A DNA stretch of 63,090 bases, the filler included, from Nemertoderma westbladi (lineage: Eukaryota; Animalia; Xenacoelomorpha): assembly GCA_032718475.1 (NCBI GenBank). It is 3 parts of 3 records of this genome, joined end to end, with 100 filler letters (N's around TTAATTAATTAA, not from the genome) between each part and the next. Parts side by side here need not be neighbours in the genome. Positions count along the whole stretch, not along the records: positions 1 to 21,233 come from JAUCBJ010002552.1; 2 more parts are not named here. One strand, written 5' to 3'. Position 1 is the first letter of the stretch. Each line of letters begins with the position of its first letter. The position numbers were made by a program, and so were the translations under genes. Below the pieces are notes generated by a model. It did no database searches, was not told where the DNA came from, and saw only the letters and a list, made by a program, of their open reading frames with translations. Below are positions 5,163 through 46,625 of this stretch, in pieces.

Positions 5163-5707
5163 CTGAAGAGAAAATAAAGGCCTCACCTAGATCACTGAAT
5201 GTTTTCTTCTTTAATATAAATTCCCCATGGCAATATTTATGTAATAACAGAGCACCTAAACTAATTATGAGAATATATATGCTACATTTATCGACCTAAT
5301 AAACTTTTTTTAAAGAAATTCTATAAGATAAATGTTAAAGAACTGCCGAAACCCTTTCGAATGAGCCTAAAAATCAATAGATTTGGTTTAAAAATGGCGG
5401 AGGAGTAGTTGTGTTTTAAAAATGATAAACGTCATTCTGAGATAATTGATTTTAAAGGCTGAACCTTCCCGCGCAAAAACTGTCTGCTAATATGTGAGAA
5501 TGTCTGTCAATACTTTTCTATATTTTTATATTTTTTAATTTCTTCGTATTAACCCGCCTCCCACCCCTTAATACGGAGAAATTAAAAAATATAAACATTC
5601 TTCATATGTAAAATGTCAATAAAATTTCGACCTAAAAGTGCAAACCTTATATTCTTTACATGGGCGCCAAGGACTGCCATATTTGGTACACTACAGTATA
5701 ATAATTA

Positions 5708-7040
5708 TCCTCCTAACCCGCGTCATCCCCAATGCAACGGAGCACTTCGGGAAGCTGGAGGAGACGGTGCAGCGGTTCATCGCCAAACTGCTCGACAGGC
5801 CGTCGCTATCGGCGGTTGAACGCCAACTAGTCTCCCTCCCAACTCGGGATGGCGGATTGGGTATCCCGGTTCCTTCCGACTTGGAGACGCAGTACGACCA
5901 CTCGCGCCGAGTCTGTGAACCGTTCGCAGATGCGGAGTCGATGGCAGCGGTGCGGACTGAACAGAGACGGATCGTGACCGAGGTGAAGGCGGAGTCCGTA
6001 ACATCGTCTCGTACTAAAAGGGAACAAGTATACGCCCAGTTACCCACAGACCAACGCAAACTGTGTGAACTCACAACAGAAAAAGGTGCGTCAGCTTGGT
6101 TAAACTCCAAGCCACTAACCCTACAAGTTACTCACCTGAGTAAAGAAGGGTTCCGGGATGCGGTGTGTCTCCGCTACGGTTGGTGTCCGAAGAATCTACC
6201 ATCTCGTTGTGCCTGTGGGGCGCGATTTTCTGCAACCCACGTCCTGTCGTGCCCAACTGGAGGTTTCCCCTCCATCAGGCACAATGAGATACGTGATTTC
6301 GTCGCCAACTCGCTCACTGAGGTCGCCTACAGCGTTGCTGTTGAGCCGATGCTCCAGCCGTTATCCGGTGAAACTTTCACCCATCGTACCACCTCGACGG
6401 ACCAGCAGGCGAGGCTGGATGTGTCTGTGAGCGGCTTCTGGGGAAACCGATTCCAGCGGTCGTTCATCGACGTGTCCGTGTTTAACCCGCTGGCGGCGAC
6501 GAACGCGGCTATGTCCCTAGACGCAGCGCACGGGAGGTGGAACATTCTACTTTCGTCCCCCTCATATTCTCGGCCTTTGGCGGGATGGCGCCGACCACGC
6601 GCCAGTTTGTTAAGCGCCTGGGACAGAAGCTCGCGGACAAACGCGAGGTCAGGTACTCGGAATGCGTCACGTGGATCCGGCGCAAGTTAAACTTCGCGTT
6701 GCTTCGTTCCTCCCTGCTCTGCCTTCGAGGTTGTAGGTCAGCCTCTAAACGGCCGGTTCATTGTCCAGTGTCTGATGCCTCCATTCGGTTGGACAACGCC
6801 GACACTGAGCCGTAGCCTGGTAGTACAGCGCAGTCGTACAGGCCTACAATAGCTGACCAGTAGGCCTACAACATAAACAACCAACTGTTTTGAATTTCCC
6901 CCTTACATCCGTATCACTGTACCTCATTGTATAAATCAGATTTGGTGATAGGGTGTAATAGTGCAATTTGAAATCCATTGTATCAACTATGTTATTATAC
7001 TATCATTCTCACCCAATCAAAAAAAAAAAAAAAAAAAAAA
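5708..7040 (+). mobile_element. 5'-truncated CRE-clade non-LTR retrotransposon (RT C-terminus, zinc knuckle, RLE endonuclease) with poly(A) tail and ~15-bp TSD
   Basis: ORF motifs SLPTRDGGLGIP, KGASAWL, FRDAVCLRYG, CACG..HVLSC, RHNEIRD, ARLDV..FW, FVPLIFSAFGGM; poly(A) at 7019-7040; TSD ACAGTATAATAATTA at 5693-5707 and 7041-7055; apparent small deletion/frameshift near 6530. Confidence 0.9.
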
Positions 7041-7182
7041 ACAGTATAATAATTACTGCCTGAAATATTATATTTACCTCCAGAGAAGGTGTGATTCCTT
7101 GTGATTTCCTTAACCTTGGCAGTTCAATTAATGCAGAGCATGTCTTTACTTTATTTCGCATTCGGTTGTTTTATACTGGATC

Positions 7183-7711
7183 TGTTAGCTTATCCAATTC
7201 CGCTAACACAAACCCATAGAGTGAGCCATAAAGCAATATTGGGAGCACGAGGTTGATTACCAATCAACCTCGTGTCAGCCCAGTAAACGGGGACAATAGG
7301 CCCCAAAGGAGACACACACAATAGGGGTCAGGGGCCAAACCCCTAACCGAGAGAGAACACAGGGAGTGAAGGGAAACACTCCAAAGGGTGCCAACAGGGA
7401 TATCAACCAATCAGAGGGGGGAAAGGCATCGATTGAGTAGCAATAAGGCCACCGTGCAATATAACCAGTAACCTGTAATCATTCATTCAGTTTACTCAAT
7501 CAGATCAGTAGGGTGGAACGGGGACTTCTGTCACCGTCCGCTACCGCCATTATATATTACCTGTTGTGTCATACTATACTATATCAACTATCAGACTATT
7601 ATACCTTTATACATATTACCCAACATCAGAACTCTTTTACCTTTCACACACGGCGGGGACGCGTGGATAGAAAACCCAACGGATAAACCGGGATCCGTAG
7701 ATCCCGTCACA
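7183..7711 (+). repeat. 5' LTR (529 bp)
   Basis: TGTTAGC...GTCACA; near-identical to 15707-16230; TATAA at ~7459 and Inr-like TCAGT downstream. Confidence 0.95.
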
Positions 7712-9554
7712 GTGACAGAAGTCCCCGTTCCACCTCGTCTTTCGTCCCAAGCGATCTCCGCGGTCTATGGAGTCGCTGGTAGGCGAACTTCTCTACGTTG
7801 CTCTCCCTGTTTACGTCGATCTCTCCGCCCCTCTCGGGCATCGTCTCCCCGAATACTATCCGTGGTGCCGTTCCCGGTTGCTCGCCCAACCTGATGGTGC
7901 TCCCCGCGAAATCCATCGCCGGCTCCTCGTGCACCCAGGTCCGCTTGCCGGATCTGTTCCAGAAGGCCCTCGCCCCACTGGCCGTCACCACCCTTCCGCC
8001 AACCCAGTCCGTGTCCGAGTGGCCTATCCTTTCGATGGGCGGCATCTCTCCGAACTCGTCGTCGTCGTCCTCCTCTTCTGGTAGTGTCTCCAATCCCGGT
8101 ATCCCGATGGGTCCACTATGTCCCTTCCCGCCTTGGCTCTCGCCCGTAGCTCTCCATCCCTCTAGCTCCCTTAACTTCCTTGGCGGTTGGTCGCCCTCGG
8201 CGCCCGCTGGTATGGGCATCGTTTGCAACCCCGACGTCGACTGTTTCAGCGATCCCACCATCCATCCCAATTCTCGCCCTAGAGACTCCCCTGAACTCCC
8301 TGACGAAGTCCAATGAAGTTCGTCTAGGCCCGCCTGTTCCTCGAAGCCGTAACTCTGTGCCCTGGCCTCCTCTTCCCTCTCCTCTGCTTCTATCCTCTCC
8401 CGTCTAGCGACTTCTTCCAGTCGCTTTGCTTCTCGTCTGTCCGCCTCTAGCTGCTCCCATCTCTGATACGGTGTATCCGTCTCCCCGTCTACCAGATGTC
8501 GGCTGTTGTAGTACACCGACTCGCCCTTCAGCCCCGGGTGGTCTACCAGACCGTCAAAGGCCGTCTTAAAGGCTCTCCTGTAGCTTAGGGGTGATCCCGA
8601 TAACAGAAATGCCCCTGGTTCCCTTTCGATAACTACGGTCATGAATAAGTTAAGCAAACTTATCATTATCCAGTCCTCCTGCAGGATATATCGCTTCTGA
8701 TATACCTTTATCGCTCCTCTGCGAAACTGATATACCTCCTGCTTTCCCGGTCTCGCTCCCCACTTCAGCGAGTTCGCTAGTTCTGCCCCGTATTCTTCCC
8801 TAAACTTTCCCCAGTCCATCGGTTTGTGGCATACGAGCCCCAATAATTGGCCCATCGCCACAGCCCCGCATTGGCCTGTGTTCTCGACTACCCCCAATCC
8901 ATCCGGTGCCGTCATAGCCATAAAGACTTTCTGCATATCCAGGAGGTTGGTGGCGTCCGGACCGATGATCCTCTCCGCGTCCTCGCGAATCGCCGATCCC
9001 ACTTTCGTCGTCGACTTCTCCCTTACTAAGACTTGTACCGCTTTCGGTAATCGGTCTAATTTCGGCCCGTCCTTCTTCCCATACGTCCCTAGGTCGAATA
9101 AGAAGATGTCCCCATTTGGCGCGGCCAAATGTAGGAGTATGGTCCTGGCCGACCCTGCCGTTCCTCGCCTCGAACCCGCTTCGTCTTCCACGGTTCCCTC
9201 GTCATCTAGGATCATATATCCTCCTCTGTTGACGGACTCTATGAATCTTTTCCAGTCCTTCCTCGGCGATTCCCTCGGATACTTCGGAATCCCGAACTTT
9301 GCCTCGTCCCCTTTCACCACGTAGTGGAAGTGTTGGAAGATCGCGTTGTCTAGTGACGGGGTCCCGTAGGTCCCGACCAACCGCTGTTCGTGCGCCTCCC
9401 GGAAGTGATCCTGCAGCGCTCGTGCCGCGTGACCCCTTTCCAACCTCTCGTAGTATCCTCTCGTCTTCTCTTCCGGGTGTCTTTCGGTGAAATCCACCAA
9501 TATTTCTTTTCCTCCTGACTCCGCCTTTCTCTTCCTGATCAGCTTACTCGCCAT
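7707..9554 (-). CDS. Antisense ORF (~615 aa) with DnaQ-like DEDDy 3'-5' exonuclease domain (WRN-exo/EXD/Mut-7-like), coiled coil and acidic tail
   Basis: ExoI MILDDEG; LLHLAAPNGDIFLFDL; LPKAVQVLV..KVGSAIREDAERI (ExoII); NLLDMQ; YQKRYILQED (ExoIII). Uninterrupted ORF; ATG at 9554; basic KLIRKRK near the N-terminus. Confidence 0.75.
   Translation of the reverse strand: MASKLIRKRKAESGGKEILVDFTERHPEEKTRGYYERLERGHAARALQDHFREAHEQRLVGTYGTPSLDNAIFQHFHYVVKGDEAKFGIPKYPRESPRKDWKRFIESVNRGGYMILDDEGTVEDEAGSRRGTAGSARTILLHLAAPNGDIFLFDLGTYGKKDGPKLDRLPKAVQVLVREKSTTKVGSAIREDAERIIGPDATNLLDMQKVFMAMTAPDGLGVVENTGQCGAVAMGQLLGLVCHKPMDWGKFREEYGAELANSLKWGARPGKQEVYQFRRGAIKVYQKRYILQEDWIMISLLNLFMTVVIEREPGAFLLSGSPLSYRRAFKTAFDGLVDHPGLKGESVYYNSRHLVDGETDTPYQRWEQLEADRREAKRLEEVARRERIEAEEREEEARAQSYGFEEQAGLDELHWTSSGSSGESLGRELGWMVGSLKQSTSGLQTMPIPAGAEGDQPPRKLRELEGWRATGESQGGKGHSGPIGIPGLETLPEEEDDDDEFGEMPPIERIGHSDTDWVGGRVVTASGARAFWNRSGKRTWVHEEPAMDFAGSTIRLGEQPGTAPRIVFGETMPERGGEIDVNRESNVEKFAYQRLHRPRRSLGTKDEVERGLLSL
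7712..7734 (+). promoter_or_regulatory. Putative self-priming primer-binding site complementary to LTR 7512-7534
   Basis: GTGACAGAAGTCCCCGTTCCACC is the exact reverse complement of GGTGGAACGGGGACTTCTGTCAC (7512-7534); it directly abuts the LTR end and lacks the TGG of a tRNA PBS. Confidence 0.75.
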
Positions 9555-9858
9555 TCCGAACACTACACTCGCTCACCTGCAGGGTGGTGCCTTACCAAGG
9601 CGCAATACAGATGAGTGAAGTATTTAAGATGTTTCGTACAGTTCGATAATGGCCTACTTTCTACTTAATTGCGCCTTTCAAGCTAAATTTAACCTAATTA
9701 ATTTCGGAGCTAGTAAATCAGCCTAATTTACAATTTCCGTCCGTTACTTTTATTATGTTCTAGAACGATTATGTTCTAGTAACTAATTCCGAGCTGCCAC
9801 CCCAGTTAAACTCTAAGAACTACACTGCTAGCTAGCCGAACTCCACCGACCACACGAG

Positions 9859-12800
9859 ATGAGTGAATCGGGCGAGACACCGATGCGGACCCCGGACGAA
9901 GATCAAACGATCCGCGAGGCCGCGACCAAGCGATACAGGCCCACGACGCCGGAGCCATCGATAACGGGCGAACCGGAAGTCCAGAACGAGCCAAGAGAAA
10001 GCGAGAGCGGGACGGAGGGAGATGGAGACGAGTCGACACGAGACGGAGAACGGCGCGCCAATGTCGCCGGCCAGCTACCGGCCGAGGGCGACGAGCGGCC
10101 CACCGAAACGGCGACGGTGGGGCCGACGGTGCGACGCCGGACGCGAAGAGACGGAGGAGAGATCGGTACCGATGTCGCCGGCCAGCTACAGGCCGAGGGC
10201 GACGGACGGCCCACCGGAACGGCGACGGTGGAGCCGCCGGTACGACGTCGAACCCGGAGGAACGGAGGAGAAGTCGGCGAGGAGGACGTCGGGGTCTCAG
10301 AGCGACTTCGACGAGCCTACATCGCGGCCCGGAGGATGCTAAAGGATGCCAAAAAGGAAGGGGCGAAGGTAGACGAGGTGAGACTGAGAAAGCGACTAGG
10401 TGAGTCGGATAGACACTTTAATTATCTAATACGTTTTGGGCAGAGAGAACTAGCCGAAATGAGAGCACATGAGATTGCCGGGGAACTGATTGAACTATGG
10501 GAGTGTGGGAGTATGGAACCTAGCGTAGCGCCAGTGTACGTAGGGCCATACTTAGTCGATGCCCGGGGAGTAAAATTAGTGGGTTGGAAGAGACCTGAGG
10601 AGGGCGAATCCGAGGTTAACTCCGAGGATTCGGTCTCGTCGGTTGGAGGAAGTTCCGGGAGGCGGGGGAAAGTTAGTAGGACGGAGGGGCGACGGGAGTC
10701 CGTCGCAACCGATAAGTCTGCTACATCCTCCGCGAAAGAAAGAAGGGTGCTGAAAATAAATCTGACGTATGAATTAGCGATGGTGGCGACAGAGCAGAAT
10801 GAGTTAGAGAGACGATTGAGAGAGGAAACCGCATGGTTGGAGAGAGAAAGAGAGTGGGCAAGGGAGGATAGAGAGAGAGTCAAGGAGTGTAGAGAGCGGG
10901 AGATGAGAGTAGGGGACGAGCCGGCGACGTGGCTTGAGATGGTTGCGAGAGATACCGAGTTGGCCGAGCAAAGTTTACGAGAGTGCATAAAGAGAGAGAT
11001 AGAGATAGAGCGTGAGCGGGAAGATTTGCGTGCTCAGCTAGGGAGGCTTGCGCAATATCAAGCCAAACTAGACCAGCGCCGACTAGAACTGGCGCGGTTG
11101 GAAATGTCAGAGAGTGAGCCCCCACTTACAAGCAGCGAGCGAGATAACCAGAGCTGGTGTAGCCGTACGGGCGGGGGGGGGGGGTAATAATAGTACGTTA
11201 GAAGTAGATAATATTAATAGTACCGTAGTAAATAACCCTAATCCCTTTATTGCAGCGAATAATATTTTACCTGGTAGTAGTAATTTAAATTTAAATACAA
11301 ATACTCTAAATAATAATTTCAATTCAAACCCGCAAAATAATTCGAATAATAATTTAAGTTTAGAGAATAGTAGTGATCTAAGTAATTTAAATAATTTAAA
11401 TAATAATCCCGTTTCAAATTCTAATAATTTAATTGATTTAACAAATAATATTGGGAATGGTGCTATTAATGTGAGCGTGTCGGACGTACATAACCCGGCA
11501 GACGGTGGCCTGGTAGGCCACGTAGTTAGTAGGCAGGAAGTGGCAGGGTTGAGCCAACCCGACGGCGGCCTGGTAGGCCACGTAGTTGGTAGGCAGGAGG
11601 TAGCGGGGTTGAGCCAACCCGAAGTAGGCCTGATGGGCCACGCAGTAGTAGAGAGAGAGGCGGGGGTGAATAGACCCAACCGTAGTAGAGACAGTGCGTC
11701 GACTAGAGAGGGGCGTAGAGACGAAGTGAGAGATAGTGAAGTTAGATGTGGCGGGTGGGGGGGGGGCTACCGGCGCCCCACCACATAAGATTGGTGGCGA
11801 GAGAGGGGGGGCAGAGAATGCCCCACAAGAGGGGTGTAGAAGTGTAGTAAGAGGTAGTGAAGTTAGAAGTGGCGGGTGGGGGGGGGGGGCTACGGGCACC
11901 CCACCGCGAGAGATTAGTAGAGAGAGAGGGGGGGCAGAGAGTGTCCCACAGCCGTCAGCGGATAATGCGCGGGCCGAGCTAGGTAAACCGCAACACCCGG
12001 CGGCGGAGAGTAATAGGGGAATTGCGAGTATCCCCAGCGGCGTGCGATCGAGCAGAGAGAGGCAGGTTGACGTCGCGAGAGGGCAGACGAAGCGTCGGGC
12101 CCGATCAGAAGAGAGAAGAAGAAGAGTGGAGTTTAACCGGGAGGTCGACGAGAGATCTCACCAGTCGGAATACTGCACTGAAAAGAGAAGAAGAGGAGAT
12201 AGTAGAAAAGGTGTCGCCACGAACGATAGGAGTGCGAGGACGGATAACGGACCGTCGACAGTAGAGATGGAGTCAGGGAGCCAGTGGGGTCGAACTTCGG
12301 GAGATTGCCGTCGCCCCGGAGAAACGCACCGCACGCCAAGAGAGGGGTACAGGAGGTACCAATACAAAGTCGAGAACAGGAGAGGGGATCGAAGAGAAGC
12401 TTCCCGACGGGATATAGCTGCCGATCGAGAGTGCAGTAGTCGCGGGGAGATTCGAGATTCGCGAAGAATAAACTTCGGTTCGGAAGGGCACATGCAGACT
12501 GCAGGACATACTGTAGGTCTTACTGCACATACTATTATAGGCCATGCTGGGAGAGATAGAGTAGGCGATGGGGTAGCGCGAACGACGGGATTAAACCCGG
12601 AAGTCGCGGAGTACATACCGGTAGGTAGGCGAGAGGTAGGTAGGCCTATATCGGTACAGCAGCATGACTATAATACACAGGGACATAACATATATCCAGG
12701 GGAGGGGGGAGTTATTGTAGATAGATGTATGGGCCCCAATATATTAACATCAACCCCAGTACCAAACATACTGGCTGGGGGGGGACAGGGTGACATTCCC

Positions 12801-13634
12801 CCATCACAATATCGACAATATACCCCGATAGGAGCAAGAATATCGAACTCCCTGGACGAGAGCAGGTCGTGCGGACAGTCACCACCACACGCGGCCATAC
12901 AGGGGACTGCTAGTCCACAGTTAGCTGGTAGCAGGGCCACACCGTGGCGGGGACAGAAAGAAAATAACACCAAAAATAAACACAATCCCAATATACCCAG
13001 TAGGCCGAGTCTAGACAACCAAAACACTAAATCGGTACATATAAACCTAAGCGCGATACGTGAAGGACTATACAGGAAACGCTATAATCCAGGATTCCAA
13101 TGTCAATTACATCGGGACGGAACCCATAAGACCAGGAGTTGCAAGTACTGGCAAGCGTTGCCCAAACGAGATCGTGTAGCCTACACAGACGCAAACGGAC
13201 TATGTCATCGATGTGTGGTAAAAGGACACAGATCCGGAGAGTGTTGGAAAGAGAGAGGATATGAAAGGACTAAACCAGGGGCAGAGAAGCCCATTAGCAA
13301 ACATAAGGGAGTCGGGAAAGTAGAAGGAGGCGTGTTGCATACACACGCAGGACTGACACAGTGCGAGGGGGCATTACATGGGCAGACACCGCATATACCG
13401 AGGGACGAGCGGGGGTCGTCGAGGGCCTTAATGCCAGCGCACATACGAAGGGGGGGGCCAGCAAAGGTAGCACCGAAGAGAGTGTGGCGAAGAGTTAGAG
13501 GACGTATAGGAGGGCAGCAGGAGAGTGCCTACCGGAAGAAGGGGCACGTAAGAGTTTTTAGTCGTCCAAAGTTTTGGACTGAGGGGGTGGGAATGAGGGC
13601 GAGACGCCCTTCCCACGCACAAAATATAAAATAA
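9859..13634 (+). CDS. Gag-like protein (~1250 aa if joined), split into three ORFs by indels in G runs (11173-11184, 11757-11766)
   Basis: N-terminal coiled coil, Asn-rich tract, and C-terminal CQLHRDGTHKTRSC..R....GLCHRCVVKGHRSGEC double knuckle typical of Bel/Pao Gag; successive ORFs shift +1 at the G runs. Confidence 0.7.
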
Positions 13635-13674
13635 TTATTTAATTAAAAATAATTAAATAATAGAGTAGGTAGAA

Positions 13675-15330
13675 GTTAGGTAGTTAGTTAGTTAGTTAGT
13701 TAGTTAAAGGGTGGTACGTAGTACCGTTAGTAGAAGAGTTAGTAGGAGGGTACGTGTAGTACCGTTAGTAGAAGAGTTAGTAGGAGGGTACGTGTAGTAC
13801 CGTTAGTAGAAGAGTTAGTAGGAGGGTACGTGTAGTACCGTTAGTAGAAGAGTTAGTAGGAGGGTACGTGTAGTACCGTTAGTAGAAGAGTTAGTAGGAG
13901 GGTACGTGTAGTACCGTTAGTAGAAGAGTTAGTAGGAGGGTACGTGTAGTACCGTTAGTAGAAGAGTTAGTAGGAGGGTACGTGTAGTACCGTTAGTAGA
14001 AGAGTTAGTAGGAGGGTACGTGTAGTACCGTTAGTAGAAGAGTTAGTAGGAGGGTACGTGTAGTACCGTTAGTAGAAGAGTTAGTAGGAGGGTACGTGTA
14101 GTACCGTTAGTAGAAGAGAGTTAGAGGGTACGTAAGTACCGCTAGTTAGTAGAGTTAGAGGGTACGTAAGTACCGCTAGGTAGTTAGAGTTAGAGGGTAC
14201 GTAAGTACTGCTAGTTAGAGTAAGAGTTAGAGGGTACGTAGTACCGTTAGAGAGTAGGAGTTAAGGGGTACGTAGTACCGTTAGAGAGTTAGTAAGAGTA
14301 AGAGGGTACGTAGTACCGCTAGCTAGTAGAGAGAGCTAGAGTAGTAAGAGGGTACGTTGTACCGCTAGCTAGTAGAGAGAGCTAGGAGTAGTAAGAGGGT
14401 ACGTAGTACCGCTAGTTAGGGGTGTTAGTAGTAGCAGTAGAGGGTTGTGGGCACCGTAAGCGCCACGTAGTTAGAGTTAGTAGGGAATGCGCTGAACTTA
14501 GTGGGGCACGGGCGTGATGATGTGTTTGATGTAAGAGCAGGGTATGTTAATTAGGGTGGGTGCCGGGCACAAGAGGTGCCGGGCACAAAAAGAGTTAGTA
14601 GTAGAGTTAGTTGAGTTAGTAGAGAGTTAGTAGAGTTAGTAGAGTTAGAAGGTGCCGGGCACAAGAGGTGCCGGGCACAAAAAGAGTTAGTAGAGTTAGA
14701 AGAGAGTTAGTAGAGTTAGTAGAGTCAGTAGTAGTTCACATAATTAACGTACCCACTCTGCCGGCACTCAGAGCGTCACGTGTAGGCGATGAGACGTAAA
14801 GGGGATGTAGAGGGGTAGAGACGGGCACATAGGGTGCCAGAGAGTAGAAGAGTAGAGACGGGCACATAGGGTGCCAGGTAGTAAGTTAGAGAGGTAGTAG
14901 TGTAGTAGAGAGGGCACATAGGGTGCCAGGTAGTAGAGTAGAGCAGAGGGGGCACATAGGGTGCCAGGTAGTAGAGCTAGAGAGGTAGTTGAGTAGTAGA
15001 AGGGCACATAGGGTGCCAGATAGTAGAGTGGTTGTGGGCACCGCAAGCGCCACGTAGTTAGAAGAGTAGAGTAGAGTTAGCAGAGCTAGTGGAGTAGAGT
15101 TAGTAGAGCTAGTTAGCAGAGTTGGTAGACTCAGAGGAGTCAAGTAGAGTTGATAGAAGTAGAGAGCTAGTAGGAGTTAGTTAGACTTAGTAGAGAGTTA
15201 GAGTCAGTAGAAAGTTAGAGGCTCTCAGTTAGAGCTAGAAGTAGTAAGAGTTAGTAGTTAGCAGAGTTAGTTAGATAGTTAGAGTTAGTAAGCAGTAGGT
15301 AGATAGTATGATAGCACAGGGGTAGCATTA
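13675..15330 (+). repeat. Strand-biased (C-poor) tandem arrays in the 3' part of the LTR element; 38-bp unit x ~10 plus derived units
   Basis: GTACGTGTAGTACCGTTAGTAGAAGAGTTAGTAGGAGG repeats, then GGGCACATAGGGTGCC units within AGTTAGTAG linkers. Confidence 0.9.
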
Positions 15331-15706
15331 GAGATTAAAGCCTTAGGGAGTGACAAGAGAGTAGAGAGTAATAGTGCGGAGTGCGAAGAGAGCGTGGGCG
15401 CAATTCAAGTGTGGGGGAGGAGAAGTGAGAGGAAGAGTGTGGGACGAGGAGGTCCGGGGGTATGCGAGAGTTGGAGTAGAGTGGTGAGAGTGTTGGGGAA
15501 ACAAAAATTGTGTGAGAGAAGCGCACGATCGGCCCGACACGAGACGCCAGAGGGTAGTGACATCATACCCATAGGGAGCGGCCTGGAAAGCCGACTCCGA
15601 AAAAATAGACCCACCCCACACCCGATGCTAGATCGGGATCCAGCGGAATTGTAGCGCACTTGAGTTGGATGCTATCTTCTCACCGGGAAGATAGCATGGG
15701 GGGGAG

Positions 15707-16230
15707 TGTTAGCTTATCCAATTCCGCTAACACAAACCCATAGAGTGAGCCATAAAGCAATATTGGGAGCACGAGGTTGATTACCAATCAACCTCGTGTC
15801 AGCCCAGTAAACGGGGACAATAGGCCCCAAAGGAGACACACACAATAGGGGTCAGGGGCCAAACCCCTAACCGAGAGAGAACACAGGGAGTGAAGGGAAA
15901 CACCCCAAAGGGTGCCAACAGGGATATCAACCAATCAGAGGGGGGAAAGGCATCGATTGAGTAGCAATAAGGCCACCGTGCAATATAACCAGTAACCTGT
16001 AATCATTCATTCAGTTTACTCAGTCAGATCAGTAGGGTGGAACCGTCTGTCACCGTCTGCTACCGCCATTATATATTACCTGTTGTGTCATACTATACTA
16101 TATCAACTATCAGACTATTATACCTTTATACATATTACCCAACATCAGAACTCTTTTACCTTTCACACACGGCGGGGACGCGTGGATAGAAAACCCAACG
16201 GATAAACTGGGATCCGTAGATCCCGTCACA
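15707..16230 (+). repeat. 3' LTR (524 bp)
   Basis: Direct repeat of 7183-7711, preceded by the PPT and followed by the TSD. Confidence 0.95.
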
Positions 16231-16305
16231 GGATCTTCCATTCCAAGATTTTCCGTAGGAGCAAGTCTGTCAATTCAATTCAATTTCAATTCAACATATT
16301 TATTT

Positions 16306-16762
16306 CCCAAATATTACATTACATACACAAATAATAGGCCTACATGTGTACACAAATATTACATTACATACACAAATAATAGGCATACATGTGCACACAA
16401 ATATTACATTACATACACAAATAATAGGCCTACATGTGTATACAAATATTACATTACATACACAAATAATAGGCCTACATGTGTACACAAATATTACATT
16501 ACATACACAAATAATAGGACTACATGTGTATACAAATATTACATTACATACACAAATAATAGGCCTACATGCACACAAATATTACATTACATACACAAAT
16601 AATAGGCCTACATGTGTACACAAATATTACATTACATACACAAATAATAGGCCTACATGTGTACACAAATATTACATTACATACACAAATAATAGGCCTA
16701 CATGTGTATACAAATATTACATTACATACACAAATAATAGGCCTACATGTGTACACAAATAT
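16306..16762. repeat. Minisatellite, 42 bp unit, ~11 copies, next to a (TTGAA)n LINE-type tail on the minus strand
   Basis: CAAATATTACATTACATACACAAATAATAGGCCTACATGTGT repeats; 16271-16305 reads AATAAA..(TTGAA)n on the minus strand. Confidence 0.9.
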
Positions 16763-17148: not shown

Positions 17149-19945
17149 TTAATTTAAAAATCTGTTAAAATGACAATATGGCAATAGATCAACATCTTTC
17201 AATTTATCAGTAAAAATATTTACATTTGCAGAATTGACAATTTCTTCGGGTAAGGAATTCCAAATATCTACAGTTCTGTTTGAAAAAGAGTTTTTTACAA
17301 TTTGTAGACGGCAAAACGATTTGAAAAGCTTACGGTTATGGCCTCTATTTCTAATATTGGTACTTAAAGTGAAAAAGTCATTAAAATTTAGATCAACATC
17401 ATTATGAAAAATACTATACACCATTTTTAAATCATAAATATGCCTACGTACTTCTAGAGGTTGTAGCTTAAGAAAATTAATTCTCTCCATGTAACTACGG
17501 CTGCCGAGGTTACAGCGCTTAAAAAGACGCCGGGTGAAGTAACGCTGAACCCGTTCGATTAAATCAATACTACCTAACGTAAATGGAGAGCAAACGGCAG
17601 TACAATATTCTAGTAATGGTCTGGCATATGACTTATACGCTGTACAAATGGCTTTCAGGTTACCGGTATAAAAACACTTAAATAAAATATTCACTACTCT
17701 ATACGCCTTCTTTACTTGTTCACGGTAGTGAAGATCAAATTTCAAATCATGATTCACAATTACACCAAGATCTCTACAAAAGTCATCATTTTTTATAAGG
17801 TTACCATTAAGAAAGTATTGCACAGGTGACACCTTTATACAAGTTGTAGATAAATGAACTACTGAACATTTGTGTGCAGCTATCTTGACCTGCCACTCAT
17901 TTGCCCAAGTCTCTAGTGATTTGAGAGCTTCTGCCAATGAATGGATGTCTGATGATTTGCTGTACAACTTGAGATCGTCAGCGAATAAATTACAACAGGT
18001 GCCGGTACCTATAATATCAGGTAAATCATTAACATAGAGTAAAAATAATAATGGCCCTAAAACGCTTCCTTGAATTGTACCTGATATAACTTTGCTTACG
18101 ACAGAAATAGTATTACCAACCAAGACTTGTTGGGTACGATTACATAGAAAAGCACCAATCCACAATAACAAGTGACCCGAGATACCGTAGCTAGCAAGTT
18201 TAGCCAAAAGTTTACAGTGAACGACAGAATCAAACGCCTTGGCGAAATCTATGTATATAACGTCTATAGAGCTGCGACTGTCAAGCAGCTTAAACCATTT
18301 ATTAGTACTGTCAAGCAATTGAGTACAAGTACTGCGACGTTTCATAAATCCATGTTGCGACTTACTAATAATATTATGCAACCTTAGGTACAATAATACA
18401 TCATTTTTGATACATAACTCCATTATTTTACATGTTACACATGTAAGCGAAATGGGGCGGTAGTTATACGGATTAGTGTGGCTGCCCTTCTTAAAGAGGG
18501 GGATAATGTTAGCAGTGAGCCATATAGAGGGTAAAGCGTGAGATTCAAATGATACTTTAAATAAAATAGACAACGGAACAGATAAACATTTAGGTAGTTT
18601 CGCAAAAATAAAACTGGGAAAACCATCTGGAGTTTTTCCACATTTAGCCTTAATATTCTTAAGTACAGAATAAACAGCACCAGGGGAAAAATCTACAGTG
18701 GAAATGTGTACACCATTAGCTACTCTACGGTTAAAAATAGGCATTGATTCATTATCCTTTGTAAAATTCTCAGAAAAAACTTCAGAAAATATATGTGCTT
18801 TAGTAGTGTCATCAATTATTACTTTGCCATTCATTTTAAACGCAGATATACCCGATCTGACTTTACGTTTGCTATTAACATAAGTAAAAATAGCGTTAGG
18901 CTTGCCAGATGTTAATATTTTGTTTTCACGTGCACAAGCCACTCTAAAGATGCCTTTAGAAACGGCCTTGGCACATTTCTTATACTCCTCTTGGCCGTTT
19001 TCTGTGTGGCGACGACGCCATAACAATTTCTTTCGCTTTTGTAATTTCGTTATAAAGCGCGGATGTGATTTATTACTTGAAATTTTAGTGAAAGGTACAA
19101 ATTTTTCGATACCGGATTTCAAAATTTCGGCAAATGCCAACCAATAATCATCCACAGATTCACAATTGTTATATACATCGGACCAGTTATAATTATCTAA
19201 GTATGCACCAAAGCTTATATAGTTGCCTTTCTTAAAGTTATAAAAACCGGCATCATCATTTTGAACATACTGTTTAGGAGAAACGATACTAAAAATAATT
19301 CCTGAATGATCACTAGTCGAAAAATTTTCGCGAGTATCAACATCAGATACGAACATATCCTCAGAAGTGAAAACAAGATCTAACACACTATTTAAGCGAG
19401 TTGGTTTAAATTGGAGTTGTTCAAGGCCACTTTCTAAAATAAAATTAGAAAAAGTATTATAGAGACTATTATCAGGGTGGGATCCATCAGACCAGTTAAA
19501 AAGAGGCAAATTAAAGTCACCAAAAACTGTTACAGGAAAGTCCACATTGCATAAATCTGATAAACCCAGACATAACCGGCGATCATCATCGTTTGACGAG
19601 GAAGGGGTTCGATAAACGCAAATCAAACGGCAAGGATGCTGACCTACGAGATCGAGGGCGACGATCTCCAGACCTTCGAATTTTTCACCAGAAAGTTCAA
19701 TTCGATGGATAGGTGCTCCCAGGGCGCAGTCACGGATAAGGATTGCGACACCGCCTGCCCTTAAAACACGATCGTTGCGATAAACACTAAACTTCCCGTT
19801 CCCGGACAGCATACCATCAGTAAAGGAGCTCGTCAGCCAGGTTTCCGTAATTCCGATTACGTCAAATTCGCAGTCGGCCAAAAAAGCGTTCAATTCGGCC
19901 AATTTGTTACCTAGAGATTGGGCGTTGAAGCAACAACATTCTATG
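17149..19945 (-). CDS. CR1 ORF2: APE endonuclease plus reverse transcriptase
   Basis: CFNAQSLGNK, IGITETWL, GDFNLP, LDLVF, SDH; YRPISLT, QHGF, YIDFAKAFDSV, QGSVLGPLLF, LFADDLK, RDLGV, RGHNRKL. Confidence 0.95.
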
Positions 19946-19979
19946 AAAGGCGAGACACAGTGCGTCTGGTATTCCCCCG

Positions 19980-21128
19980 TTACGCGTTTCCCAGATTTCC
20001 CCGGACGGCATGCTCCTGGGTGCCAGTAGCAGTAGGTCTGGCGGAATCAGCTGGGGTAGCCGGAGTAAACGCGCTGGCTGTGGTTGTAGTCGCACGTCCT
20101 AGTGGTCTGGAAGCCCTCGACTGTCGACGTAGGTAAGCTTGCTGCATCTGTAGTTTGGTTAGATCGTTGTCAATAAAGACATTCCGATGATCAACGGAAT
20201 TTCTCAGTTTCGACTTCTCCTTTATGACTTGGGACTTACTTACGAGATTTGATGCTTGTACAATTAACAACGATGATCCTTCGCCATGTTTGTTGCGCCT
20301 AAATAGTACTTTATCAACGGATCCCGCGATGGATAATTCCTTACTTATGAAACTGTTAACGAATTCCAGCTCTTTGCCTTTATCCTCTGGTAGATCGAGA
20401 CCGCGTATAACAAAGTTTTTCTCCCGTTTCTGCTGCTCTTGAAGTTCCTTTCCTACATCGTCGACAGAAATCATCGGGACACGAGAAGAGGAAGCTTTAG
20501 TGTTCCCCCTGTTCGTTGTAGTCACAGGTACTTTGAACCATGGGTTGGAGGAGCTATCTACCGGGGAGTCGTCCCTAGCTGCGATTTCACTCCGCAAATC
20601 TTCAAACTTAGTGTTTAATAGAGCAGTGTGATCTTTTAGAGATTTCTCGAGTTTATTTAGCAGTTCATTATCTCTCTTCGAGGTAGAATCCAACCGAGAA
20701 TAGTCACTGATTGCTGAATCCCATTGACCTTCACATTTGTTGCAGACGATCTTACAGTTTTTGCAGTTACCAACCACAGCAAGTTGCGCCTCCGAAAGAC
20801 GAAGACAGGAACCGTGAATCCAATGACCACAGACCTCGCACCCCAAACAATTGCTGCCACTCACCTTCTTATCACAATGGGGGCAACAATCGTTAACCGA
20901 GTCATTCTCGGAGACAGAATCGAATCCGCATGAAATTGAGTGTATGTCAAAGTCTGCTTTGGATACGAACAAAGCTGAACACGAATCGCACGAAAATAAC
21001 TTCGACATATCGATTCTAGTAGGCCTAGCAGTTGGCAAAGGACTAGAAACTGGTAATCTAGACCCTGCGTCAGTAGCGAGCGATACTCGTGTAGCAGCAG
21101 TCCGCTTACCCTTCTTCGTGCCGCTCAT
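19980..21128 (-). CDS. CR1 ORF1: C2H2-like finger, PHD finger, coiled coil, RRM-like region
   Basis: CDSC..FDIH; CPHC..CEVCGHWIHGSC..CNKC PHD pattern; REKNFVIRGL; VFIDNDLTK. Confidence 0.9.
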   Translation of the reverse strand: MSGTKKGKRTAATRVSLATDAGSRLPVSSPLPTARPTRIDMSKLFSCDSCSALFVSKADFDIHSISCGFDSVSENDSVNDCCPHCDKKVSGSNCLGCEVCGHWIHGSCLRLSEAQLAVVGNCKNCKIVCNKCEGQWDSAISDYSRLDSTSKRDNELLNKLEKSLKDHTALLNTKFEDLRSEIAARDDSPVDSSSNPWFKVPVTTTNRGNTKASSSRVPMISVDDVGKELQEQQKREKNFVIRGLDLPEDKGKELEFVNSFISKELSIAGSVDKVLFRRNKHGEGSSLLIVQASNLVSKSQVIKEKSKLRNSVDHRNVFIDNDLTKLQMQQAYLRRQSRASRPLGRATTTTASAFTPATPADSARPTATGTQEHAVRGNLGNA

Positions 21129-21233
21129 TGCAGAAATATAATAGTAACAATGACAATGCAGCCGTCGATGGTAGTGAACTATTACACGTGCACATATAAT
21201 AAATCAAATAAAGATATAAAGATCAGATAATTA

Positions 21234-22767: not shown

Positions 22768-24871
22768 ATGTGTGTTAATAATAACTAATAATAATTAATA
22801 ATAACATAAAAACAGCTTTGAAGCACCAATGAAGACCAATCCACCGATTCAATATACCAGAATATAATAACAGCCCACAAGGAATCAGCTAAGAGGCATA
22901 GCCCCCAGAAACCCAAACGAAAACAGTATGTGCCATCTCAAAACTCTGAGGTTACTTGTAAGAGAGAAGATCTTAAGATAGCCTACAAAGTTAAAACCGA
23001 ACAACCAACAACCGAAAACATTAACAAGGTTGAGAAAGCTAAGGACGATCTTAAATTGGCCTACAACATCAGCCAGGAAAAGTATGGCCTACAACATCAG
23101 CCAGGAAAAGTATAAAATAAAACAGGACAAAACTTAAGCAATTACAACTGCTCACATACAGCAACAATCAAGACTTACCTGGCAAACTGTAAATGAGGTA
23201 TCTGGTCGGAAAAGTTGTGCAAAGGGGCGCCTCAAAGCCGATAGTCCTGAAGAACGTGTTGGGAAGTGGAAAAATCACTTCAGCAACTTGCTTGGGCAGC
23301 CACCAAACATCGAGGTCACCCCTACAAGGAAAATATATGACAAGACACTACCTATAGTAACAGGGGACTTCACACCTGCCGAACTCCAAAGAAGCATTAA
23401 AAGCATGTCCAATAATAAAGCAAGTGGATTAGATGAAATCCCAGCGGAGGTATGGAAAACCGGAGTGCTAAACAGACCATTATTGAATGTTTGCAATCGG
23501 ATGTTAAAAGGGGAAAAGCCACCACCAATTTGGACTAAAGTTCAACTAAAGCCTCTCCCCAAGAAAGGAGACCTCGGCATACCAACAAACTATCGTGGGA
23601 TCTGTCTGCTTGTGGTAGCTGCCAAAATATACAATAAAATGATTCTATATAGGATTAGGCCTCACATAGGGAAACTACTACGTAAGAGTCAAAACGGATT
23701 TCGATCAAGTAGATCAACAATAGCTCAGATACTTGCACTACGGAGACTGATTGAAGGAATTAAGTCAAAGAATCTCCCCGCAGTCATAAACTTTGGATTT
23801 CAAGAAGGAATTCGACTCCATCCATAGAGGTAAAATGCTTGAAATCTTAAGAGCTTATGGAATACCAGAAGTAATTGTTGCTGGCATTGGATTGTTATAT
23901 TGTGACACAGAAGCGCAGGTACTCTCACCAGATGGTGAAACTGAGTTTTTCTCAATCCTGGCTCTCGTACTGCAAGGTGACACATTAGCACCATTACTAT
24001 TTGTAATTGTGCTGGATTACACAATGAGGACGGCCACAAAGGGTGAAGATCTGGGATTCACACTTCAAGAACGCAGAAGTAGTAGATATCCAGCAACTAC
24101 AGTGACAGACACCGACTTTGCGGATGACATCGCCCTGCTCTCTAATATGCTAGCAGATGCACAGCTTCTACTAAATAAAGTGGAGAGGGCTGCTAAGGAG
24201 GTTGGATTGCATATAAATGCTACCAAGACCGAATTCATGACCTTTAATGTTGATGGAAACTTGACAACCATTGATAATAATCAACTAAGGAAGGTCGATG
24301 ACTTCCAGTACCTTGGATCATGGATAGAGAGTAGCAAAAAGGACATAGAAGTTAGGAAAACAAAGGCTTGGGTAGCTCTATTAAAAATGGATACCATCTG
24401 GAAATCAGATCTCTCCAGGCACCTGAAGACTAAGTTCTTTCGAGCCACAGTGGAAAGTGTATTTTTATACGGGGGTGAGACCTGGACACTGACTAAATCA
24501 CTTGAACAACGAATTGATGGTTGCTACACAAGACTACTAAGGGCAGCTCTAAACATCAGCTGGATACAACACATTACAAACACCGAGCTTTATGGTACAA
24601 TACCGCCTGTATCCACCACCCTCCGTGAACGCAGATTAAGATTCAGTGGGCACTGCTGGCGAAGTAAAGACGAGGTCATACCAGATCTACTTTTCTGGCA
24701 ACCAACTCATGGAAAGCGTAGTCGTGGACGACCGGCCATAACATATATAGATCAACTTGAAAGGGATACTGAACTTGGGAGAAACGAAATTGCGACAACT
24801 ATGGAAAATCGGGTAGCCTGGAAGGATCTCATTTCCACTGTCCGAGTTCGCTCGACCTAGTACTAGTAGTA
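22768..24871 (+). mobile_element. 5'-truncated RTE-clade LINE with ~52-bp TSD and (TAG)n tail; RT frameshifted
   Basis: KASGLDEIP, NYRGICLL, QNGFR, DFKKEFDSI, LQGDTLAP, DFADDIALL, RRLRFSGHC; absent from the paralogous site at ~39040-39105. Confidence 0.92.
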
Positions 24872-25550: not shown

Positions 25551-26695
25551 GGGGGGGGGGGGGGGGGGGGGGGGGTAGCGCATTTTCAGACCAAAAAGTC
25601 GAATTTTTGAAACATATCCTATCTGATGGAGAATTTCATGCTGAATCCAAATATGGAAACCGTTTTCCCATATCTTGCTTAGTTTTCGAGATATCTGGGA
25701 TAGAAGATACTGGCTCCGATGTATCGCGATATCGGTAAAGGAGATGAAGTTTGGGGTTTGCATTCAATTTCTGAATATTTCTGTGCTCAGTGGTGCTAAT
25801 TGGATGTCTCCACGAGAAAGAGCACAAAATTTTAATTGAGAAGATATTTTTTTATGATTATTGGACCTACTGATCAGTTTATAAGACAACTTCAAGTCTC
25901 CGGAATGAAGACGGGACTCGAATAAGCGACTCTGCGGTCTTTGCGGGATTACACGGAATAGACTTATCGGTCATCGGAGATCTTCAAAATGTATAATCTC
26001 CAGTTCTAGTGGTCGTACGAAGTTCGTTTTGGGCTCATTCGAAAGCTCTTTTCTCAGAGACCAAAGTTACCATTTGGTTTGGCAAACTCTTGAAAGCTGC
26101 CTGAGCAATCATAACTTGAACAAAATTTGCAAGGCATATTTTACCCAAATTCATGTTATGTTGCTTTACAACCATTTTGTCTTAAATCAAATGGTAACTT
26201 TGTTCTCTAAGAAAAGAGCTTTCGAATGAGCCTAAAACGAACTTCGTACGACCACTAGAACTGGAGATTATACATTTTGAAGATCTCCGATGACCAATAA
26301 GTCTATTCCGTGTAATCGCGCAAAGACCGCAGAGTTGCTTATTCGAGTCCAGTCTTCATTCCGGAGACTTGAAGTTATCTTATAAACTGATCAGTAGGTC
26401 CAATAATCATAAAAAAATACCTTCTCAATTAAAATTTTGTGCTCTTTCTCGTGGAGACATCCAATTGGCACCACTGAGCACAGAAATATGCAGAAATTGA
26501 ATGCAAACCCCAAACTTCATCGCCTTTACCGATATCGCGATATATCGGAGCCAGTATCTTCTATCCCAGATATCTCGAAAACTAAGCAAGATATCGGAAA
26601 ACGGTTTCCATATTTGGATTCAGCATGAAATTCTGCATCAGATAGGATATATTTCAAAAATTCGTCTTTGTGGTCCGAAAATGCGCTACCCCCCC
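25551..26695. mobile_element. Kolobok-like non-autonomous DNA transposon with ~500-bp TIRs and TTAA TSD
   Basis: TTAA|GGGG...CCCC|TTAA; arms ~25551-26080 and ~26184-26695 are inverted copies; the paralogous site (~40105-40120) has a single TTAA. Confidence 0.85.
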
Positions 26696-33900: not shown

Positions 33901-34508
33901 TATTACAGGTTTGTAGTAGTGCGTCAAGTTGTGTTCTGTATTTATTAGTAGGGTCTTTAGTTAATGTAGTATAGGTGTTAGGGTCTCTTAAAATACGTAA
34001 GCATTCATTTTTATAGTCATTGGTATCTAGGATTAGAGTGGTACCAGATTTATCGCCCCTACAGATACGAATGTTAGTGTTGGACTTGAGTGATTTGAGG
34101 ACAGTTCGTTGTTGTTTCGTAAGGTTGTCCTGAGGTACATTTTTGGGGGAGACATTGGGTGTTCGGTCTACGTCACGGTGTAGTTCGGCGATGAGAGCTT
34201 CCACTATTTCGTCGTCGCTTTTCGGTGGTAGGGCTCAAGGGGGTGTTTTTAGAGATTTGTTGAGTTGTCTGATTAGTTTGTTGTTGGCGTCCTTTGAGTT
34301 GGTGTGTGCTCCTGGGTCGTTGGTGGTTGCTCCATTGTTGTTAGTCTTCGTCCCTGGGGTGTTGGTGCTCCCGTTTTGGTCGTTGGTTATCGTTCCTGAG
34401 TAGTTGGTGTTCACTTCCGGGTTGTTTCCCGCCCCTGTGTTGTTGGCGTTTGTCCATGGGTTGGTGTTCGCCCCTGGGTTGTTGTTCGCCCGTGGGTTGG
34501 TGTTTTCC
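30934..34508 (-). mobile_element. Penelope-like element (RT plus GIY-YIG endonuclease), degraded, 5' truncated
   Basis: DNLT..LKSLK..GDKSG, KGRPIV, SLDVVDMYTNI, YLQLRGAAMGS, YKRFVDE, LPFLDV, LYIKPT, CNSSRCLTC, YYIGQT..ERFNGH. Confidence 0.92.
31044..31090 (-). ncRNA. Minimal type I hammerhead ribozyme-like motif in the Penelope pLTR (variant core)
   Basis: Minus strand ATAGT-CTGATGC-AGACC-GGTA-GGTC-GAA-AACGTT-T-ACTAT: stem I, stem II and palindromic stem III; A9 replaced by C. Confidence 0.65.
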
Positions 34509-46525: not shown

Positions 46526-46625
46526 NNNNNNNNNNNNNNNNNNNNNNNNNNNNNNNNNNNNNNNNNNNNTTAATTAATTAANNNNNNNNNNNNNNNNNNN
46601 NNNNNNNNNNNNNNNNNNNNNNNNN
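46526..46625. other. Scaffold gap with TTAATTAATTAA linker
   Basis: Same spacer as 21234-21333. Confidence 0.95.

What the first reader, a model, noticed from the sequence alone, without database searches (positions are those of the whole stretch)
7183..16230. Candidate new retroelement type: self-priming, pol-less LTR element with Bel/Pao-like Gag and an antisense DEDDy exonuclease
Seen: ~99%-identical LTRs, 5-bp TSD and PPT (recent retrotransposition); no protease, RT, RNase H or integrase; no tRNA PBS; a self-complementary PBS; an intact 615-aa antisense ORF between the 5' LTR and gag; a hairpin array where pol would be. Established: the Gag knuckles and TGTT start fit Bel/Pao, whereas self-priming is described for the Tf1/sushi branch of Ty3/Gypsy. 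Inference: a trans-mobilised family that keeps its own Gag and a nuclease cargo. I know of no described element with this combination, but could not search.
Basis: partly seen in the sequence, partly recalled or inferred. Interest (0 to 1): 0.92.

Follow-up and report, generated by a model that had tools for sequence, protein, structure and literature searches.

The report
Pol-less self-priming retrotransposon with exonuclease cargo
This is a young, multi-copy animal jumping gene that has no copying enzymes of its own, likely borrows them from a helper element, likely starts copying itself with a piece of its own RNA, and keeps a conserved backwards-facing gene predicted to be an RNA-trimming nuclease.

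Summary
The element is real. It spans 9,048 bp with 99%-identical LTRs, a 5-bp TSD, a PPT and no pol. Public runs show a multi-copy family and the empty insertion site, so it is not a misassembly. The 23 nt directly after the 5' LTR pair perfectly with 7512-7534 inside that LTR and there is no TGG start, which fits self-priming. The 615-aa antisense ORF is intact; 13 of 16 listed variants in its folded part are synonymous (counted by hand). Its RNase D-like identity is likely (ESM Atlas 0.91, BLASTP to RNase D, motif order) but no HMM or fold search was significant. No helper was found. Each part has precedent (TR-GAG, TelKA2n, Juno/Vesta DEDDy ORFs, Tf1/sushi and TAR self-priming); I found no paper with the combination. 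Verdict: new variant of a known kind, interest 0.5.

The parts
7178..7182 (+). left target-site duplication (5 bp)
   Evidence: empty site 7177->16231 in runs X1 and X2
7183..7711 (+). 5' LTR, 529 nt, TG...CA
7407..7492 (+). predicted Pol II promoter: CCAAT 7407-7411, TATA-like 7460-7464, Inr-like 7487-7492 (inferred start about 7489)
   Evidence: read by eye; no RNA data
7512..7534 (+). predicted self-primer segment in R, perfect complement of the PBS
7712..7734 (+). primer-binding site, 23 nt, no spacer after the LTR, no TGG start
7707..9554 (-). intact 615-aa ORF; predicted RNase D/WRN-like 3'-5' exonuclease domain at about aa 100-335 (acidic residues D117/E119, D192, Y289 with E293 or D294), then a coiled coil and a disordered tail; its last codons overlap the PBS and the LTR end
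   Evidence: variants
9555..9858 (.). AT-rich spacer between the two head-to-head ORFs; likely internal promoter and/or splice acceptor
   Evidence: function inferred
9859..11187 (+). sense ORF, first frame (442 aa): disordered start with a 111-nt duplication, then coiled coil; ends at a G run
11087..11788 (+). sense ORF, second frame (Asn-rich, 60-nt repeats), overlapping the first and third frames at G runs
11730..13634 (+). sense ORF, third frame (634 aa), mostly low-complexity, carries the knuckles
13101..13244 (+). two zinc knuckles: Cx2Hx4Hx4C (13101-13142) and Cx2Cx4Hx4C (13203-13244); no third knuckle
   Evidence: sequence; Pfam zf-CCHC_3 E 0.0043, below its cut-off; Atlas 0.86
13640..15300 (+). 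purine-rich tandem array with 24 short stem-loops of two types that differ by a compensatory pair; lies where pol would be
15623..15695 (+). three adjacent hairpins just before the PPT
   Evidence: 15620-15706, z -3.43, 0 of 200 shuffles
15698..15706 (+). polypurine tract
15707..16230 (+). 3' LTR, 524 nt; its primer segment differs from the 5' LTR
16231..16235 (+). right target-site duplication (5 bp)

Best explanation
This is one young copy of a multi-copy, pol-less LTR retrotransposon family that is likely mobilised by a helper element's enzymes, likely primes reverse transcription with its own RNA, and keeps a conserved antisense ORF predicted to be an RNase D-like 3'-5' exonuclease. Steps: (1) inferred: Pol II transcribes from the 5' LTR at about 7489; (2) shown in sequence: R 7512-7534 can pair over 23 bp with the PBS, ending exactly at the LTR boundary; (3) inferred from Tf1: the helper's RT/RNase H cuts after 7534 and extends that 3' end, the PPT primes the plus strand, and the helper's integrase inserts the DNA with a 5-bp duplication (the duplication is shown); (4) inferred: the hairpin array and the knuckle protein help load the RNA into helper particles, and the element supplies no capsid; (5) shown: variants in the folded part of the antisense ORF are mostly synonymous; inferred: it is expressed from a divergent internal promoter and acts in trans on RNA 3' ends, most likely as an accessory that helps the element's RNA survive or mature, as proposed for the rotifer Juno/Vesta ORFs. 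The helper is more likely Bel/Pao (about 0.6, from knuckle spacing) than a Sushi-like Gypsy.
For: LTRs, TSD and PPT. Multi-copy: 26,210 of 8,938,268 contig records of X1 and 11,901 of 1,581,921 of X2 lay on 6900-16500; summed depth is 2,000-170,000 in the bins inside the element against 123 and 106 for contigs that join the empty site; one 139-nt contig with 0 differences has depth 1,230 in X2. LTR-end contigs continue into several unrelated flanks. The antisense ORF and the array are covered at depths of the same order as the sense ORF, so the layout is the family's. Of 40 variant rows shown (818 in all), 16 fall in aa 253-334 of the antisense ORF: 14 are third-position and 13 synonymous; 12 fall in its tail (aa 430-539): 5 synonymous; none makes a stop (hand count). 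PBS complement exceeds the 10-bp, 0-5-nt-spacer rule used in PMC6317226; no variant at 2% or more is listed in 7512-7534 in 4 runs. A related form keeps both PBS anchors around a different middle and different downstream DNA (loose ends at 7720: 4 contigs in X1, 3 in X2). Exonuclease: 24 of 30 Atlas hits carry PF01612, score 0.91; BLASTP to E. coli RNase D 17/40 identical, pairwise E 6e-4; ExoII and ExoIII columns line up in order.
Against: No helper was seen, and no long record spans the element. No Pfam, NCBIfam, PDB-sequence or large-library homologue of the antisense ORF (the single hit is a chance repeat). hhalign to an RNase D profile gave E 0.22, no better than two controls (0.41, 0.041). 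The 14 invariant alignment columns are not discriminating: two unrelated controls gave 7 and 13. The Atlas match shares 160 of 256 features, below the 170 typical of true members, and the top three hits are unnamed. The fourth catalytic position is E or shifted by one. The predicted primer lies about 23 nt inside the inferred transcript start, not at its very end. The 3' LTR, which would supply this segment to daughters, pairs only through two 8-nt anchors. Some copies differ before 7724. The variant table is a top-40 subset and variants share haplotypes.
Confidence: 0.6

Rival explanations
1. The helper is a Ty3/Gypsy element of the Sushi or Gmr1 kind, so self-priming is simply inherited and the Bel/Pao look of the knuckles is misleading or captured.
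For: LTR 3' end matches the rGmr1 and Sushi motifs exactly and the 5' end at 6 of 7 positions (PMC3601003 Table 3; sequence). Self-priming is established for Tf1/sushi. The third Bel/Pao knuckle is missing, and Belpaoviridae are defined with a tRNA-Arg or tRNA-Gly PBS.
Against: Two knuckles with Bel/Pao-like spacing (PMC554778); the linker between them looks like Bel/Pao nucleocapsid (recalled, not tested). PMC3601003 modelled no Bel/Pao LTRs in the tables I saw, so the end motifs cannot exclude them.
Confidence: 0.3
2. The R-PBS duplex is a regulatory or packaging hairpin that blocks translation or marks the RNA, and priming uses another RNA.
For: The primer segment lies inside the inferred transcript, the duplex is very stable, and the element has many other hairpins. 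Copies with other sequence near 7720-7726 exist.
Against: The pairing ends exactly at the first base after the LTR, where minus-strand synthesis must start, and no TGG-type site is present.
Confidence: 0.2
3. The antisense ORF is a catalytically dead DEDD-fold RNA-binding protein (Egalitarian/EXD1-like use) or an unrelated protein, used for RNA transport or packaging rather than trimming.
For: No significant HMM match; insertions next to ExoI and ExoIII, and E rather than D in the ExoIII column; low model confidence around ExoI. PMC5408684 notes inactive DEDD derivatives in piRNA pathways.
Against: Acidic residues are present at all four expected places by eye, and PMC5408684 reports a DEED variant it regards as intact.
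Confidence: 0.25
4. A one-off chimera or assembly artefact.
For: Frame changes at G runs and a cluster of LTR differences could be assembly errors; no laid record spans the whole element.
Against: Exact empty site in two runs of different studies, high depth along all parts, and codon-biased variation.
Confidence: 0.03

Closest known systems
Juno and Vesta LTR retrotransposons of bdelloid rotifers with a DEDDy ORF3, and non-autonomous TelKA2n (Rodriguez et al. 2017, PMC5408684; passages read)
   Same: RNase D-like DEDDy cargo with an altered acidic motif inside an animal LTR retrotransposon; TelKA2n is a pol-deleted family that keeps an extra ORF.
   Different: There the exonuclease is an ORF3 in elements with pol (ORF3s lie downstream of pol per PMC5718144); here it is antisense, upstream of the gag-like ORF, overlaps the PBS, and pol is absent.
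TR-GAG and LARD non-autonomous LTR retrotransposons (as described in PMC13570524; passages read)
   Same: Long, pol-less, LTR/PBS/PPT intact, gag-like ORF retained, multi-copy.
   Different: Described mostly from plants; no capsid domain is detectable here; nuclease cargo and self-complementary PBS are extra.
Tf1/Tj1/sushi/Tcn1 (Ty3/Gypsy) and TAR/Houba/Osr-1 (Copia) self-primed elements (PMC4600332, PMC6317226; passages read)
   Same: PBS abuts the LTR and is complementary to a segment of the 5' LTR; no tRNA site.
   Different: Duplex is 23 bp and lies about 23 nt inside the inferred start; the element is non-autonomous; knuckles are not of the single Gypsy type (recalled).
Bel/Pao (Belpaoviridae) (PMC8742986 whole text; PMC554778 passages)
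   Different: No third knuckle, no capsid hit, no pol, no tRNA-Arg/Gly PBS.

Membership tests
LTR retrotransposon (non-autonomous) | direct LTRs with TG...CA, TSD, PPT | tested here: met
LTR retrotransposon (non-autonomous) | no PR, RT, RNase H or IN | tested here: met
LTR retrotransposon (non-autonomous) | several insertion sites and an empty allele | tested here: met
LTR retrotransposon (non-autonomous) | autonomous partner sharing termini | not testable with these tools
   no genome held; searches found nothing in mainly microbial collections
Bel/Pao (Belpaoviridae) | triple Cys-His box CX2CX3-4HX4C, CX2CX2-4HX4-5C, CX2-4CX3HX4H | tested here: not met
   second box exact, first has H for its second C, third absent (against PMC554778)
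Bel/Pao (Belpaoviridae) | capsid domain in Gag | tested here: inconclusive
   no Pfam or PDB hit in any of three frames; a diverged capsid is not excluded
Bel/Pao (Belpaoviridae) | 18-nt PBS for tRNA-Arg or tRNA-Gly | tested here: not met
   no TGG start; site is self-complementary (definition)
Bel/Pao (Belpaoviridae) | RT phylogeny | not testable with these tools
   no RT in the element and no helper found
Self-primed LTR elements (Tf1/sushi, TAR) | at least 10 bp complement in the 5' LTR of sequence starting 0-5 nt after the LTR | tested here: met
   23 bp, 0-nt spacer (rule in PMC6317226)
Self-primed LTR elements (Tf1/sushi, TAR) | primer is the 5' end of the transcript and is cut off | not testable with these tools
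   no RNA run on record holds the stretch; start site inferred only
Self-primed LTR elements (Tf1/sushi, TAR) | R and PBS covary across families | tested here: inconclusive
   an alternative PBS keeps both anchors, but its R partner was not seen
DEDDy 3'-5' exonuclease (RNase D/WRN, PF01612) | ExoI, ExoII, ExoIII acidic residues and Tyr in order | tested here: inconclusive
   ExoII and ExoIII columns align; ExoI placed by eye only; fourth residue E or shifted
DEDDy 3'-5' exonuclease (RNase D/WRN, PF01612) | significant profile match | tested here: not met
   Pfam, NCBIfam and hhalign not significant; Atlas 0.91 is a lead
DEDDy 3'-5' exonuclease (RNase D/WRN, PF01612) | DnaQ-like fold | tested here: inconclusive
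   single-sequence model pLDDT 32; guided model pLDDT 59, best Foldseek E 0.1, circular because RNase D rows guided it
TR-GAG | intact gag with no pol | tested here: inconclusive
   gag-like ORF has two frame changes in this copy and no capsid hit

The most novel reading that the evidence does not exclude
The two oddities are one mechanism: a Bel/Pao-derived parasite that makes its own primer with its own nuclease. Short LTR transcripts anneal through R 7512-7534 to the PBS, and the element's RNase D-like enzyme trims their unpaired 3' tail back to the duplex edge at the LTR boundary, leaving a primer without tRNA and without the RNase H cut that Tf1 needs. It would be a new priming route and the first defined job for a retrotransposon DEDDy ORF.
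Probability: 0.12. Interest if true: 0.85.

Novelty: new variant of a known kind. Interest (0 to 1): 0.5.

Why it matters
The role of DEDDy exonucleases carried by retroelements has been open since 2017 (PMC5408684 reports activity undemonstrated and no clear link to copy number). Here such an ORF appears to be under purifying selection in a family that has shed all of pol, so it likely does something for the element itself, and a high-copy family makes that testable by dN/dS and enzyme assay. If the helper is Bel/Pao, it would also extend self-priming to a superfamily that ICTV defines as tRNA-primed; my searches listed no paper whose title or abstract start reports that.

Tried and rejected
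No whole genome is held, so copies, TSDs and the helper could not be counted directly. Homology searches of the antisense ORF found nothing usable: 0 of 7,990 candidates, PDB sequences, 1.84-billion library with one chance repeat hit, plasmids 3 hits at E 7-10 and phages 0, metagenomes 0 of 114. Knuckle region: 0 of 76 candidates, 0 of 10 in viral contigs. LTR-end pattern in metagenomes: 0. None of 6 proteins is in the exact-match collection. Single-sequence fold and its structure search were uninformative; the RNase D-guided fold is circular and not counted as evidence. Counting invariant alignment columns was rejected after controls gave 7 and 13 against 14 (81, 84, 85; a third control failed on frame and was not repeated). 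A by-eye resemblance of 15307-15654 to the Bel/Pao integrase tail had no Pfam support. Rfam: 3 chance-level matches, no ribozyme. The depth dip at 7712-7733 was not used: summed contig depth varies with graph branching. No RNA holder is listed; X5 is only guessed to be RNA. A splice-junction primer, suggested by earlier scan notes, is not needed here because the complement is contiguous. The sigma-70 scan (73) does not apply to a eukaryote. I recall a report of an exonuclease-like ORF in nematode Cer (Bel/Pao) elements (Malik et al. 2000); the paper is not held and searches did not confirm it, so a Bel/Pao precedent for the cargo remains open. Repbase, Dfam and GyDB could not be searched; no supplements were read.
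Full report
Observation. The element runs from 7183 to 16230 (9,048 bp) between two GGATC duplications. Its LTRs (529 and 524 nt) start TG and end CA and differ at five bases and one 5-nt gap. A 9-nt polypurine tract touches the 3' LTR. No pol gene is present: the three sense frames and the antisense ORF have no PR, RT, RNase H or IN hit, and after 13634 the longest frame is 115 aa with no hit. The RT genes elsewhere in the window belong to LINE-type elements outside it.

It is a family, not an accident. No genome is held, so I used public runs. Six of seven listed runs hold part of the stretch. On 6900-16500, 26,210 of 8,938,268 records of X1, 11,901 of 1,581,921 of X2, 212 of 1,901,655 of X6 and 43 of 15,198,257 of X5 were laid. 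X1 and X2, from different studies, both have contigs that join 7177 to 16231, skipping exactly the element plus one TSD copy, at depth 123 and 106. So the insertion is polymorphic and young. Summed depth inside the element is 2,000-170,000 in these two runs. The tool warns this is no copy number; a single 139-nt contig with no differences at depth 1,230 in X2 implies at least about ten copies, and the sums suggest tens to hundreds. The antisense ORF, the sense ORF and the array are covered at depths of the same order, so the pol-less layout looks typical of the family. No record spans the element, so a pol-bearing minority cannot be excluded. Contigs ending at the LTR tip run into several unrelated flanks.

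Primer site. The 23 bases directly after the 5' LTR (7712-7734) are the exact reverse complement of 7512-7534 (0 of 100 shuffles had any match). The region folds with z -4.98. The duplex ends where minus-strand synthesis must begin, and there is no TGG start. This exceeds the rule used to call self-priming in PMC6317226 (10 bp, 0-5 nt from the LTR; passages). Three cautions apply. CCAAT, TATA-like and Inr-like motifs, read by eye, put the start near 7489, so the primer segment is about 23 nt inside the RNA, whereas Tf1 and Tj1 use the 5' segment itself (PMC4600332, passages). The 3' LTR carries a different middle in this segment and pairs only through two 8-nt anchors; none of its four differences inside 7470-7790 is among the 16 variants listed at 2% or more, so the 5' form appears to be the common one. 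Other copies differ here: 4 contigs in X1 and 3 in X2 keep both anchors around another middle and then continue into different DNA, which may be a sister family or the helper, and 2-3 contigs in X2 and X3 differ before 7724 (24 of 143 loose ends shown). I could not see the R partner of those forms.

Antisense ORF. It is 615 aa and uninterrupted, and its last codons overlap the PBS and LTR tip. One search showed 40 of 818 variant rows, 28 of them in this ORF. By hand, 13 of 16 in aa 253-334 are synonymous (14 third-position; about 1e-5 if positions were equally likely, ignoring shared haplotypes), against 5 of 12 in the disordered tail; none makes a stop. That is the best evidence that the protein matters to the family. 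Its identity is likely but not proven. For: 24 of 30 ESM Atlas neighbours of aa 1-400 carry PF01612, score 0.91, and all ten best family-bearing hits agree; BLASTP to E. coli RNase D gives 17 of 40 identities just before ExoIII; alignments place D192 on ExoII and Y289/E293 on ExoIII; a DxE motif at 117-119 fits ExoI by eye. Against: no Pfam, NCBIfam, PDB or large-library hit; hhalign no better than controls; invariant-column counts matched by a control; folds uninformative or circular. I put the DnaQ-like fold at about 0.8 and catalytic activity at about 0.6.

Sense ORF. It changes frame twice, at G runs 11173-11184 and 11757-11766; these may be assembly errors or real breaks. It is mostly disordered, coiled-coil or repeat-built and ends in two knuckles (13101-13244). 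Against the Bel/Pao definition in PMC554778 (passages) the second is exact, the first has H for C, and the third is missing. No capsid domain was detected. It is better called a nucleocapsid-like protein than a Gag. The LTR ends do not help the Bel/Pao case: PMC3601003 Table 3 (passages) gives TGTT for Mag A, Sire and Retrofit, and this LTR's ends fit its Sushi and rGmr1 motifs. ICTV defines Belpaoviridae as tRNA-primed (PMC8742986, whole text). The element should therefore not be filed as Bel/Pao, though a Bel/Pao helper is my best guess (0.6).

Array. Between 13640 and 15300 lie 17 stem-loops of one type and 7 of another, and the two stems differ by one compensatory pair. Folding z-scores are -7.25 (0 of 20 shuffles) and -4.35 (0 of 100); tandem repeats inflate such scores. 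A packaging or protein-binding role is an inference.

Mechanism. Most likely the RNA folds back to prime itself, a helper's RT, RNase H and integrase do the chemistry, the array and knuckle protein help it enter helper particles, and the exonuclease-like protein, made from a divergent promoter in the 9555-9858 spacer, acts on RNA 3' ends to the element's benefit. Structure, multi-copy status, the pairing and the codon bias are shown; everything about enzymes and expression is inferred.

Novelty. DEDDy ORFs in LTR retrotransposons and a pol-deleted family with an extra ORF are published for rotifers (PMC5408684, passages; also PMC6431247 and PMC5718144, passages). Gag-keeping pol-less elements are TR-GAGs (PMC13570524, passages). 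Reverse ORFs in the 5' part are a scored category in plants. Ten paper searches (listings, with passages of 14 papers read) showed no element with this combination and none reporting self-priming for Bel/Pao; subscription papers, Repbase and supplements were not seen. Unchecked notes of this scan describe self-priming Bel/Pao elements in other genomes and one gag-plus-Rrp6-like pol-less element, which suggests the parts recur. Verdict: new variant of a known kind; interest 0.5.

Noticed in passing
window 7707-7734 (-): The last nine codons and the stop of the antisense ORF are written by the PBS complement and the LTR tip, so any change of primer site also changes the protein's end; the antisense mRNA would itself carry the PBS-pairing sequence.
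   Followed up: partly
window 7720-7726, runs X1-X3: Alternative sequences after the LTR tip: one keeps both PBS anchors and leads into different DNA (possible sister family or helper); another replaces everything before 7724.
   Followed up: partly
window 7183-16230, run X5: A run labelled as another organism holds low-depth pieces 97-99% like the element; contamination, prey or host tissue are all possible, and its RNA status is a guess.
   Followed up: no
window 17149-21203 (-): Near-intact LINE (CR1/L2-like by layout, recalled): PHD-like ORF1 at 19980-21203 and endonuclease plus RT ORF2 at 17149-20046.
   Followed up: partly
window 23138-24860 (+) and 34345-35574 (+): Two further broken LINE-type RT fragments.
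   Followed up: partly
window 31591-33846 (-): Two long frames that look by eye like a Penelope RT and GIY-YIG endonuclease with a Thr/Asn-rich repeat between them; no Pfam hit at E 0.01.
   Followed up: partly
window 28212-29243 and 41996-42940 (-): Two about 95%-identical MFS transporter exons 13.8 kb apart, a local gene duplication.
   Followed up: no
window 61660-62889 (+): PPP1R32-family gene in one 409-aa frame (Pfam E 2e-62), possibly intronless or a retrocopy.
   Followed up: no
window 51700-58900 and 59755-61130: Large complex satellite block (35-, 40-, 48-, 68-nt units) and a 21-nt array present in inverted orientation on two sides of a 400-nt spacer.
   Followed up: no
window 25569-26695: 512-nt inverted repeat, 96% complementary, 103-nt loop; MITE- or foldback-like.
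   Followed up: no
window 46578-48047 (-): Orphan 489-aa frame with a coiled-coil tail running into an assembly gap; no Pfam hit above cut-off.
   Followed up: no
window 5623-6690 (+): Frame resembling the C-terminal zinc-knuckle/endonuclease part of an R2/CRE-like non-LTR element by eye; no Pfam hit.
   Followed up: partly
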